NCBI GenBank assembly: GCA_012295275.1
Contig: CM022678.1
Coordinates: 15,500,001-15,564,000, forward strand
Length of the DNA stretch: 64,000 nt
Source: Chrysomallon squamiferum
Taxonomy: Eukaryota > Animalia > Mollusca
Direction of reading: 5' to 3'
Below the pieces are notes generated by a model. It ran no database searches, was not told the origin of the DNA, and was given only the letters and a program-made list of their open reading frames with translations. Positions 1 to 36,700 of the stretch are shown piece after piece (within the stretch, counting starts at the first letter, position 1; every line of letters starts with the position of its first letter). Made by a program: the position numbers and the translations under genes.

Positions 1-744
1 ATACATTTATAAAATAAATGGTGCACAGATTAACATAGTCTAGATATATATAGAGGGAGGGATACCAAGAACAAGAACTCATTAATATCAGTGGTATTCT
101 CCCATTTGTCACACATCCAGTTTACTCAGAGTGTGTTTTTATTAGGTGTGTAACAAACAGTGCATGTAACAAATGGGAAAATACCACATCAATGGCCAAG
201 AAATCCTGCCTTGCCAAGTAAGTATATGATTAAATAAGATTTCTTTTTCAATGAAATATGTTAATGTAAATGGTGGCCAAAGACTGCAATGTAAGTTCTA
301 AATATTTTCAGAACTTTGTTGGCTTTTAAAATAAAATGGGGCATCAGAATCTATGATTGGTAGTAATATGGTTGAAAAAAAGGAACCAGTGGCAAGACAA
401 ATTAATTATTTTCTAACAATCAAGCAAGTGTCAGACACTTGTGATCAACATGTGGTTTTTAGCAATCTTGTTAAAAACAAAAATAATGGACCATACATGA
501 ACAGGTTTTAAATATACTAGTACTCCAACCTGTTGACCATCTCTTTCTTTTTACTGTTTTGTAAATGATTATGTTTTTGGTTCTAATTCTAATATTTTTA
601 TGGGTATTAAATGTTACATTTTGCCCATGTTCTAAAACCCACAGGACTGAAACAGTTTGGCTGTGTTGTCAAAAGCCCAAGTAACCCATGACTGGTATTT
701 CTGGTTGTATTCAATTGTTGTGTACTATTAAAACTCGTATTTAC

Positions 745-891
745 CCCATGTCCTAAAACCCGTATGATTGGAATAGTTTTCTCGTTGGCGATTGACTGGA
801 GAATTCTCGGTGGTCCGTACAAACTTCCCATACACGAAGAGACTGAGGAGAGATAGAGACCTGCCAGCCACAGCACTCCTACAATAGACAC
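745..891 (-). CDS. SLC12A8: SLC12A8 coding exon 8
   Basis: [16 protein letters not shown]...[11 protein letters not shown]...LGHG |GTAAAT, 147 nt. Confidence 0.93.
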
Positions 892-33700: not shown

Positions 33701-36700
33701 ATCATTTAATCACTGTTTAAAATACAATAGTTTAAGATAGTCAACAAATAAGTCACAGTTATTTAAAACTGAGGATGAAATCTGGTGAGGGAAATGTCTA
33801 AAATACTGTAGAATTATCTCCCATTATGGTGACTGATGTATCATTGCATATTTTTCTTTTGTTAATGTTCAAGATTTGATTTTTCCTGTCTGTTTTGACA
33901 AGTTTACAGTTTATTGAATTTGAAAAAAATTAAAACGTATCTCCCTGAGCCATCACTCTTTATTAAATTGTTTACCATTTCTATTTTATGTTCAGTTCTT
34001 GCAATATACAGTAAATAAACAGTAGCTGATATTCAAAAGAAAAAAAAAAAAAAAAAAAAAAAAAAAATAACAATATTTCAGAGAAATGCCATAAGTAACT
34101 GAAGTCCATTTTTTAATATATTTCTAAACTGCAATACATCATCAATTTTCATCATCATAATCTTAGTTTGATACTGAAAAGAATAAAAATTAAAATAGTA
34201 ATATTTGTGTAAATCCAACAAGTAACTGAAATACACTTTTAGTACATTTCTAAATTCTAGTACATTATTGCTAAGTTCCATCTTCATAACATTAATTTAA
34301 AAAAAAAAAATTCTATCTGAACATTTCAGAACTTTATTGAGTTTTGCTAAAACATTTACCTTTCTCAGTTAATTTTCTTTCCCTAATTAACCTCTGAATT
34401 ATTATGAACGTTATCAATATTATATTGTATTATAACAATGTTTATATTTTTATAAAAGACTGTTATTTTTGTTGCTGCAGATTGCTACTGGCGTGTTGTT
34501 CATAATGACCTCATTTCTCATCATGTACACGTTCCACTGCACATGGGTGACCAGTGAGGCGTACTCCAGCCCCTCCATCGTCCTGTCCGCGCACGGCGGT
34601 GATGGCAGCAGAATCATCTTCGACGACTTCAGAGAAGCTTACTACTGGCTACGTCACAACACTCCAGAGGTAAAATCTAAACACATTCATGTCACACTGA
34701 GTAATTAGAAATCTAAACACATTCATGTCACACTGAGTAATTAGAAATCTAAACACATTCATGTCACACTGAGTAATTAAAACTCTAAACACATTCATAT
34801 CATACTCTGAGTAATTAAAATTATATATGTATTTTTTATCAGACACTTGGGTTAAGTGGATTTCAGAATACATGTTTATTGGCCACTTTTACTATACATT
34901 AACATCATATACATTAGATTTGATATTTCAAACATACCTCCTTGATATGTTTTTTAATGTACAAATTATTATCTGTAAAGCAGTCATGTAAGTAGTGAAG
35001 TGTGTAAATCAGTGTTTGTGTTATTTTCAGGATGCTAAAGTGATGTCGTGGTGGGATTATGGGTATCAGATCACTGCGATGGCAAACAGGACAATATTAG
35101 TGGATAACAACACGTGGAATAATACACACATATCCAGAGTCGGACAGGTAACATTCACTAATTATATACAGCATTATTCATTACCTGTAAAAATACTTGA
35201 TTGGTAGATTGTGAAAGCTATAATAGAAGTCTTTTCAAATCATATTGTTTGTAATGTTCAAAAAGGAAAAAAGGGGAAGTAATTTAGCATATTGTAAATT
35301 GTGAATGGATTGGTTTTTAATGATTTTTTTAAGATCTGTATATAACATAGCATTTCCAACAACAGTACTGATTCATTGTTAGGAATGTATGGAAATAGTT
35401 ACATTTTTGAGTGAGTAATGATTCATTAATAAACACTGCTGTCATGTTTTGTAAATTTTCTTATTTGTAAAAATAGTCAACTAATAAGTTGTGAACACTG
35501 TAAAGCAGCCAGTTCACATATCATTGTTTGAAGTTTCTATATTGTTGATGATGTTTGAAAAGGAAACGTGTGTGATTATTTAATTGTCAAATGTATTATT
35601 TACATCATGTTTTGAATTATGTCAGTGGTTTGTTAATTCATTATGTTGTAAATCAGAGTGAAATACCTTGTTTTAAGCATTTCAAAACCCAATTTAATGT
35701 GGCTACATAGCATTTCAACTGATATATTGTTATGAATATATGGAAATATAAATCATGATCAAAAACATGTAAACGTTTAAAATAAATAAAAAAGTCATGT
35801 TTGTTTTAGATTTATTAAAATGTTATTAAATAAATAAAATGTATGATAGTGTTCTGTTTGATCTTTTAGGCTATGTCATCACCAGAAGAAAAGGCGTATG
35901 AAATAATGCGAGAGCTGGATGTAAATTATGTACTAGTAATATTTGGAGGTCTGACAGGCTATTCTTCAGATGGTAAGTTACAGCAGATGTAAATCAGATC
36001 TTTGTAATTATCATTTATAAAGTTATCATGTTTGGTTTCATTTTCGCAGCATTGAAAATGAAAGATGGCATAATTTTTGCTGAAGCTAAATAGGTGGTTC
36101 AAAATGTCCTTTACTGTTGTTGTTTTTCTTTCTCTGTTCCAACCATTCTTTTATAAAATATATATTTCTAAATTTACTATATATAGTAACTAAACAATTA
36201 CATCATTATATATAATTTAAATAATTTAAAATTGTTTGTGTGTACATATATTTATATTTTAACATCATATTAGATTTCTTATTTTTATTTATTTATTTAT
36301 TTTTTTTTTAATTATTATTGTTTTTTTTTTTACAGATTAGTAAATTCCTAATTTTTCAGTTTGCAGTTATATATTTTTATACTTCTTGCAAAAATACAAG
36401 AAATTTACTTTGTTTTTCAGATATAAACAAGTTTATGTGGATGGTTCGTATAGGGGGCAGCACTGACCGCGGTGCTCACATAAAGGAGGCTGACTATTAC
36501 ACGCCCCGGGGCGAGTTCCGAGTGGACAAGGAAGGCTCACCCACCTTACTCAACTGTTTAATGTACAAGATGTCTTACTACAGGTTCGGTTCGGTTTACA
36601 CTGAAGGAGGTAAGCGATGTTTGTTCAGCAGTTTCATTTTGTTTATTTATTTAACATGTTTGTTTAGTTATTAATTTATTTTTTTAGTTTAATAATTTCT

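What the first reader, a model, noticed from the sequence alone, without database searches (positions are those of the whole stretch)
624..34818. Recurrent system: intronic tandem arrays built from the gene's own splice junctions
Seen: at least five unrelated repeats in two housekeeping genes have units that copy, or start exactly at, the neighbouring exon-intron boundary. These are donors at 9224, 10981, 34669 and 745, and the acceptor at 33470. Two more arrays start 25-60 nt from a splice site (917, 18101). The units share no sequence, so each arose locally and independently, and they range from pristine to nearly decayed. Inference: either a mutational process focused on splice junctions (for example R-loop or polymerase-pause-linked slippage or repair at exon edges), or retained decoy-site arrays that tune splicing and NMD by copy number. 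Such arrays are also plausible substrates for intron gain or sliding. I cannot confirm novelty without a literature and genome search.
Basis: partly seen in the sequence, partly recalled or inferred. Interest (0 to 1): 0.85.

Follow-up and report, generated by a model that had tools for sequence, protein, structure and literature searches.

The report
Mirage repeats at snail splice junctions
In two genes of what is probably a snail, several locally born tandem repeats copy or touch an exon edge and its splice signal, but the assembled RNA uses only the site next to the exon, so they are likely tolerated by-products of a repeat type already known from lancelets and human genes.

Summary
Partly confirmed; known kind. 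The genes are SLC12A8-like and STT3A of a gastropod near Gigantopelta.

Of the five named sites, two are arrays spanning a donor (9224: 11 of 13 extra units keep the exact donor; 10981: decayed, 0 of 26 do). One copies only the intron side of an acceptor (33470). One starts 4 nt into the intron and copies no donor (34669). One is a single 121-nt duplicate that lost its GT (745).

RNA contigs from one study use the exon-adjacent site at 4 of 4 junctions tested; contigs cannot show rare use. Duplications sit near exon edges more than random placement predicts (8 of 20 within 30 nt, 2.4-2.8 expected). Those that straddle a junction do not (3 versus 1.4-1.6, P 0.16-0.22), and the window was picked for the pattern. 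Orthologous donors in other animals lack copies.

These are amphioxus 'mirage' / human F7 IVS7-type minisatellites (PMC3087553, PMC1557585). The scan found this pattern before in other genomes. A decoy/NMD rheostat is not supported.

The parts
745..18584 (-). SLC12A8-like gene, 8 coding exons seen (18584-18160, 11121-10981, 9415-9224, 8257-8140, 7164-7051, 5548-5347, 2776-2689, 891-745); continues off the left edge
   Evidence: open 401-aa model; exon 9415-9224 is 95% identical to Gigantopelta aegis SLC12A8-like; RNA joins
27603..37275 (+). STT3A gene, 15 coding exons
   Evidence: open model; exon 34481-34669 matches STT3A at E 5e-32; RNA contigs
8723..9245 (-). Array A: 37-nt unit (22 exon + 15 intron nt) spanning donor 9224; 11 of 13 extra units keep the exact donor
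   Evidence: RNA uses the first donor
10357..10991 (-). Array B: 17-26-nt units, the first spanning donor 10981; decayed copies (mean 0.69), with an older 102-nt higher-order block; no intact donor copy
   Evidence: RNA uses 10981
32815..33469 (+). Array C: 56-nt intron-only unit ending at the AG of acceptor 33470; 11 upstream AG copies; the last unit differs from the homogenised inner ones
   Evidence: RNA uses 33470 and DNA runs hold the array
34673..34821 (+). Array D: 36-nt unit x4 starting 4 nt into the intron after donor 34669; does not copy the donor; one unit fewer in run X4
605..779 (-). E: single decayed duplicate (spacing 121 nt) across donor 745; the copy lacks GT
917..2231 (-). 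26-nt array ending 25 nt before acceptor 891; unit unlike the acceptor
17866..18101 (-). 17-nt array starting 58 nt after donor 18160
11142..11261 (-).

Best explanation
Several unrelated tandem repeats in these two genes copy or touch a splice junction while the RNA seen uses only the exon-adjacent site, so they are likely neutral 'mirage' minisatellites: ordinary local duplications that happened to be seeded at or near an exon edge and that selection likely tolerated. Step 1 (shown): the SLC12A8 region is very repeat-rich (37% TRF cover in 1-25000) and each unit is private to its intron. Step 2 (inferred): a short tandem duplication arises by slippage or unequal exchange. Once the arrays are collapsed the introns are short, so 7-8 in 100 seeds would include a junction by chance. 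Step 3 (shown in contigs, mechanism inferred): one complete site stays joined to the full exon, the first copy for a donor and the last for an acceptor, and this is the one spliced, as exon definition and the F7 scanning result predict. Step 4 (inferred): the array expands and contracts like any VNTR, the inner units homogenise, and the spare signals decay. Step 5 (inferred, untested): arrays that abut an exon would be shielded from large deletions, which could explain the mild excess near edges. Any use of a spare site would give a premature stop, a likely small cost and not a function.
For: Anatomy. RNA contigs use 9224 (X8, X9), 10981 (X8), 33470 and 34669 (X8, X9), 4 of 4 junctions. Straddling duplications number 3 of 20 against 1.4-1.6 expected, P 0.16-0.22. 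The signal is lost in the most diverged cases B and E. Inner C units are 0.96 alike and 0.88 to the exon-adjacent unit, matching the exclusion of boundary units described for mirages. D is one unit shorter in X4. No donor copy was found at 38 and 24 distinct orthologous donors, and one independent acceptor mirage occurs in L044. Precedent: PMC3087553, PMC1557585.
Against: Near-edge excess is real within the window: 4 of 11 TRF arrays within 5 nt against 0.56-1.05 expected, P 0.002-0.009 with hand-merged ends, and 3 of 12, P 0.02-0.07 with raw ends. It is 8 of 20 within 30 nt, P 0.001-0.004 under the collapsed null. Microsatellites show no such excess (0 of 31 within 5 nt), which a simple deletion-shield would not obviously predict. 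A and C keep signals as strong as genuine ones. In A the 15 intron-derived positions after the G are unchanged in 13 of 13 copies while the exon-derived part varies. RNA evidence is contigs from two samples of one study, blind to rare or NMD-degraded forms. X9 holds an 86-nt unit-to-unit contig of array C, read here as unspliced RNA or DNA.
Confidence: 0.7

Rival explanations
1. Mutational bias: tandem duplications arise more often at exon edges (exon chromatin, polymerase pausing, R-loops or repair at the GC step), and the arrays are still functionless.
For: 8 of 20 duplications lie within 30 nt of a junction, P 0.001-0.004. Microsatellites are not enriched. C ends exactly at the AG, D starts at +4, and L044 has two near-junction repeats in one gene.
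Against: The window and thresholds were chosen after seeing the pattern. There is no excess among the 13 unnamed duplications and straddling seeds are not in excess. In 37701-64000 neither of the 2 non-coding duplications lies near an exon of the provisional third gene. Only 2 of 109 distinct sites in other animals carry one. Three earlier notes (unchecked) report no excess in independent gene sets. No mechanism was tested.
Confidence: 0.22
2. Selected decoy arrays: the spare donors and acceptors compete with the real site, send part of the transcript to nonsense-mediated decay, and copy number tunes the dose of SLC12A8 and STT3A.
For: All 11 spare donors in A and all 11 spare acceptors in C would give a premature stop. 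Their motif scores equal those of real sites. D varies in copy number. In human 6-16 and CBS some pseudo-sites are used (PMC1557585 introduction).
Against: No spare site is used in the RNA contigs. Stops are expected from almost any AT-rich insert (own knowledge). Signals are lost in B and E and absent in D, the one array with a length variant. There is no conservation at orthologous donors (distant animals only).
Confidence: 0.06
3. Assembly artefact: the arrays were made by mis-assembly at exon edges.
For: No contig spans a whole long array, and the join of array A to its exon beyond 9240 was not bridged in X3 or X4.
Against: Units carry many private variants and higher-order structure. X2 and X4 contigs run from the last C unit into the exon and show unit-to-unit joins. 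An X4 contig crosses D. The A unit is present in X3 and X4.
Confidence: 0.02

Closest known systems
Amphioxus 'mirage' minisatellites (Adh3; globins BflGb6 and BflGb9). PMC3087553, passages and reference list read; the original Adh3 paper PMC117041 was not held
   Same: [quoted passage not shown] Units are locus-specific (10-72 bp in Adh3, 150-160 bp in globins), many but not all keep AG/GT, splicing is reported as undisturbed, length is unstable, boundary units are excluded from homogenisation, and the repeats were proposed as a route to intron gain.
   Different: Here in a gastropod. Only A, B and E include exon bases; C copies the intron side only and D merely abuts. The authors call the generating mechanism unclear, and it remains so here.
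Human F7 IVS7 37-bp VNTR, with 6-16, CBS IVS13, lamin B2 and PDGF intron 4 minisatellites. PMC1557585, abstract, introduction and discussion read
   Same: The first unit spans the donor, identical pseudo-sites follow, and the most upstream site is used. Array A even has the same unit length (37 nt) by coincidence.
   Different: The F7 unit has 4 exon nt and A has 22. F7 pseudo-sites were shown to be functional by mutagenesis, which was not tested here. In 6-16 and CBS two pseudo-sites are also used.
Intron gain by tandem duplication of an AGGT (Rogers model). PMC3265369, passages read
   Same: A duplication containing splice-site letters can in principle remodel gene structure.
   Different: That model duplicates coding sequence to create a new intron. 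Here existing junctions were copied, and the two SLC12A8 donor positions are unchanged against other animals.
Splicing-associated tandem repeats in humans (spl-TRs). PMC10078293, passages read
   Same: Repeat length near splice sites can alter splicing in cis.
   Different: The mechanisms in the passages read are protein binding and branch-point spacing. No length-splicing link was tested or seen here.

Membership tests
mirage / junction-spanning minisatellite | Tandem repeat whose unit spans an exon-intron boundary | tested here: met
   Met for A (22 exon + 15 intron nt) and B (decayed)
mirage / junction-spanning minisatellite | Same feature, for arrays C, D, 917 and 18101 | tested here: not met
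   C copies the acceptor but no exon bases (P 0.45, 0.10); D starts at +4 (P 0.053, 0.16); the 917 unit is unlike its acceptor (P 0.21); 18101 lies 58 nt away. These are filed as junction-adjacent minisatellites, not mirages in the strict sense.
mirage / junction-spanning minisatellite | More than two head-to-tail copies (case E, donor 745) | tested here: not met
   Two copies only, 74% over 54 nt
mirage / junction-spanning minisatellite | Many but not all copies keep GT/AG signals | tested here: met
   A 11 of 13 exact donors; C 11 upstream AG; B 0 of 26 exact donors
mirage / junction-spanning minisatellite | Regular splicing uses the exon-adjacent site | tested here: met
   4 of 4 junctions in RNA contigs (X8, X9; 10981 in X8 only); major form only
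mirage / junction-spanning minisatellite | Length polymorphism between haplotypes | tested here: inconclusive
   D is one 36-nt unit shorter in one X4 contig (could be assembly collapse); A, B and C could not be sized from contigs
mirage / junction-spanning minisatellite | Concerted evolution of inner units, boundary unit excluded | tested here: met
   C inner units 0.96 alike, 0.88 to the exon-adjacent unit; (not seen in A, where the first unit equals the commonest one)
poison-site / AS-NMD regulatory element | Alternative site is used in vivo and the product is an NMD target | not testable with these tools
   Only contigs were available; no use seen; stops predicted for all 22 spare sites
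poison-site / AS-NMD regulatory element | Element conserved at the orthologous intron | tested here: inconclusive
   No donor copy at 62 distinct orthologous donors, but these are distant animals in short-read contigs

The most novel reading that the evidence does not exclude
In this snail lineage tandem duplications are born preferentially within about 30 nt of exon edges, so mirage-type arrays record a splice-junction-focused mutational process that repeatedly turns housekeeping introns into ladders of silent splice sites, a natural series for measuring how the spliceosome picks one of a dozen identical sites.
Probability: 0.22. Interest if true: 0.5.

Novelty: new member of a known kind. 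Interest (0 to 1): 0.2.

Why it matters
As it stands it adds gastropod examples to a repeat type described in lancelets and humans, including one on the acceptor side. It shows again that the exon-adjacent site wins against up to 11 equally good copies. It would matter more if a genome-wide test confirmed that duplications start at exon edges more often than chance, because the origin of mirages is called unclear in PMC3087553 and such a bias would link splicing or exon chromatin to mutation. The window alone cannot show this.

Tried and rejected
- Whole-genome enrichment test: no genome is held.
- Original Adh3 mirage paper: not held; known only through PMC3087553.
- D as a decayed donor copy: not significant (P 0.053, 0.16).
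- C as including exon bases: rejected (P 0.45, 0.10).
- 917 unit as an acceptor copy: rejected (P 0.21).
- Hairpin seeding as a general cause: 0 of 12 units fold better than shuffles at P below 0.05; the RNA around donor 9224 has z -1.0.
- A dispersed satellite or mobile origin: unit cores are found only within their own arrays in the window; the rest of the genome was not searchable.
- Copy number from contig depth: array C contigs reach 407 against 43-45 for flanks in X4, but contig depth is no copy number, so it is not used as a count.
- No DNA contig covered 9241-9450 in X3 or X4; a hole proves nothing.
- Runs X10 and X11 (organism B) hold next to none of the words, so no close relative's introns could be compared.
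- Literature searches for a published genome-wide enrichment of minisatellites at splice junctions listed none by title or abstract start. Searches for mirage papers gave only PMC3087553. The library lacks most subscription journals.

Full report
Setting. The window is AT-rich animal DNA. The left gene, on the minus strand, gives an open 401-aa model over 8 exons. One exon is 95% identical to Gigantopelta aegis SLC12A8-like, the best of 34 hits. The second gene gives an open 15-exon model, and its exon 34481-34669 matches STT3A at E 5e-32. The organism is therefore likely a gastropod near Gigantopelta. TRF covers 37% of 1-25000, 13% of 25001-37700 and 15% of the rest. No whole genome is held. 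Two acceptors were one base off (18585, 27602) and were corrected to 18584 and 27603 from then on.

Donor arrays A and B. A (8723-9245): the unit is the last 22 nt of the exon plus the first 15 nt of the intron. There are 13 further unit starts, 11 with the exact 9-nt donor, at mean identity 0.94. B (10357-10991): the first unit spans donor 10981 and resembles the copies (P 5e-5). The 26 copies average 0.69 identity, none keeps the exact donor, and the best GT inside scores 6.0 bits against 11.2 (matrix trained on this window's 22 donors).

Cases C, D, E and the near arrays. C (32815-33469): 56-nt units end at the AG, giving 11 upstream AG copies that score like real acceptors (up to 9.3 bits; the real one 9.1 left-out, 11.9 included), but no exon bases are copied. 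D (34673-34821) begins 4 nt into the intron; its likeness to the exon end is not significant and its best GT scores 2.3 against 10.0. E is one duplicate at 121-nt spacing, 74% over 54 nt, beyond all 5000 shuffles, with the GT lost. The arrays at 917 and 18101 lie 25 and 58 nt from a site. So 2 of the 5 named sites are junction-spanning arrays, 1 is an acceptor-side copy, 1 abuts and 1 is a single duplicate. Units occur only in their own arrays in the window; 3 of 15 unit pairs had uncorrected P below 0.05.

Is it more than chance? With 11 complex TRF arrays in the introns of the two genes (ends of B and C set by hand; the array inside the 5' UTR exon and those beyond 37700 left out), 4 lie within 5 nt of a junction against 0.56-1.05 expected (P 0.002-0.009). 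With raw TRF ends it is 3 of 12 (P 0.02-0.07). Microsatellites show no excess: 0 of 31 within 5 nt, 5 of 31 within 60 nt against 2.4-4.0. An independent catalogue of local duplications found 21 in 1-37700 and none in one shuffled control. After dropping the one inside the UTR exon, 5, 8 and 9 of 20 lie within 5, 30 and 60 nt (P 0.003-0.06, 0.0003-0.003 and 0.0003-0.004 by null).

The fairest null collapses each array to one unit. It gives 8 of 20 within 30 nt against 2.4-2.8 (P 0.001-0.004), but only 3 straddling against 1.4-1.6 (P 0.16-0.22). In 37701-64000, 4 of 6 duplications are coding and the other 2 are far from the provisional exons of the third gene. The signal is thus 'near exon edges', modest, and comes from a window chosen for it; it is not specifically 'copies of splice signals'.

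Real DNA? Nine of 11 listed runs hold the STT3A stretch or part of it, in 3 studies, all as contigs; X1, the best holder and a possible source, was left out. The stretches laid held all of D but only the last unit of C and the first two units of A. X2 and X4 contigs run from the last C unit into the exon and show unit-to-unit joins. One 1912-nt X4 contig crosses D with one 36-nt unit fewer, and X2 breaks there, which suggests 3- and 4-copy alleles, though collapse is possible. X3 and X4 hold the A unit but did not bridge it to the rest of the exon.

Splicing. The 2.5-kb STT3A contigs of X8 and X9 join the previous exon directly to 33470 and splice 34669 to 35031. X8 and X9 join 9224 to the exon at 8257, and X8 joins 10981 to 9415. 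That is 4 of 4 junctions tested, from two samples of one study; donor 745 was not tested. Contigs drop rare forms, so low-level or NMD-degraded use is not excluded. X9 also holds an 86-nt unit-to-unit contig of C at depth 25.7, most simply unspliced RNA or DNA summed over the copies, since other intron pieces in X9 stand at 2-3. Use of any of the 11 spare donors in A or 11 spare acceptors in C would bring a stop within 27 codons.

Other animals. A scan of metagenome contigs gave 80 SLC12A8 loci. I placed 158 sites, dropped 9 where the GT is a codon and no intron lies there, and kept 109 distinct ones. The introns after residues 112 and 176 are at the same positions, so arrays A and B have not moved or created an intron. 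None of the 24 and 38 distinct orthologous donors has a donor copy. L044 alone has a repeat starting 15 nt after the 176 donor and an independent three-copy mirage at the acceptor before residue 113. Other near-site duplications: 0 of 107. Caveats: the hosts are unnamed and seem distant, many loci are kin, and short-read contigs break at arrays.

Mechanism. Shown: local private units, an intact site left beside the full exon, use of that site in the major RNA, loss of the signal in the most diverged cases, and homogenised inner units with a divergent boundary unit in C (0.96 against 0.88). Inferred: origin by slippage or unequal exchange, site choice by exon definition or F7-type scanning, and survival near exons because large deletions there are purged. 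Hairpin seeding was tested and not supported (0 of 12 units). Unexplained: in A the 15 intron-derived positions after the G, which form a short palindrome, are unchanged in 13 of 13 copies while the exon-derived part carries nearly all the changes.

Comparison with what is known. PMC3087553 (passages and references) describes tandem duplications of exon-intron boundaries in amphioxus Adh3 and globins as 'mirages'. It reports both 5' and 3' edges, undisturbed splicing, length instability, an unclear origin, and proposes intron gain. PMC1557585 (abstract, introduction, discussion) lists five human genes with donor-spanning minisatellites and shows that F7 uses only the most upstream of identical functional donors. 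PMC3265369 (passages) covers intron gain by duplication, and PMC10078293 (passages) splicing-linked repeats. PMC2812944 was seen only as listing and outline. No supplements were read. Five searches listed no genome-wide test of minisatellite enrichment at junctions, so that question seems open in this library. Earlier notes of this scan (unchecked) report the same pattern in other genomes and gave me the mirage and F7 leads; three report no excess in independent gene sets and one reports an excess.

Verdict. A and B are members of the mirage type. C works like one on the acceptor side but fails the exon-spanning test, and D, 917 and 18101 are junction-adjacent minisatellites. New member of a known kind, interest 0.2. 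The open remainder is a possible bias of duplication towards exon edges (probability about 0.22).

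Noticed in passing
window 8723-9223: The intron-derived 15 nt of array A form a short palindrome and are unchanged in 13 of 13 copies. Each arm reads like a forkhead-binding motif (recalled, from no call), so the array would hold about 28 such motifs. Could be chance, palindrome self-correction or selection.
   Followed up: partly
window 28245-28505: Decayed three-copy repeat of about 80-90 nt just after STT3A donor 28260; the alignments reach weakly back to the donor, so it may be an old sixth mirage.
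   Followed up: partly
window 17866-18101: On the transcribed strand each 17-nt unit has a branch-point-like motif (recalled consensus) followed by AG, a ladder of weak acceptor-like sites (about 3 bits) 60-290 nt after donor 18160.
   Followed up: partly
L044:11635-11809 and 11986-12152: Another animal's SLC12A8 has a three-copy repeat of about 70 nt across the acceptor before residue 113 and a decayed repeat starting 15 nt after the next donor.
   Followed up: partly
window 41800-62190: A third gene on the + strand with one very large exon (open frame 50498-54841, 1447 aa, acidic and low-complexity, with coding repeats of 15, 30 and 45 nt). Not identified.
   Followed up: no
window 24830-26850: SLC12A8-like and STT3A point away from each other, so a shared promoter region is likely here; the untranslated first exons were only guessed from donor-like motifs.
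   Followed up: no
window 32090-32096: The STT3A acceptor here is weak (-9.8 bits) and has a second in-frame AG 6 nt upstream; which one is used was not tested.
   Followed up: no
window 91-187: Inverted repeat with 23-nt arms, 91% complementary, 51 nt apart, in the SLC12A8 intron; possibly a small DNA-transposon remnant.
   Followed up: no
window 34290-34312, 35795-35880: Many unrelated DNA contigs lay partly here with loose ends, suggesting short dispersed repeats inside STT3A introns.
   Followed up: no
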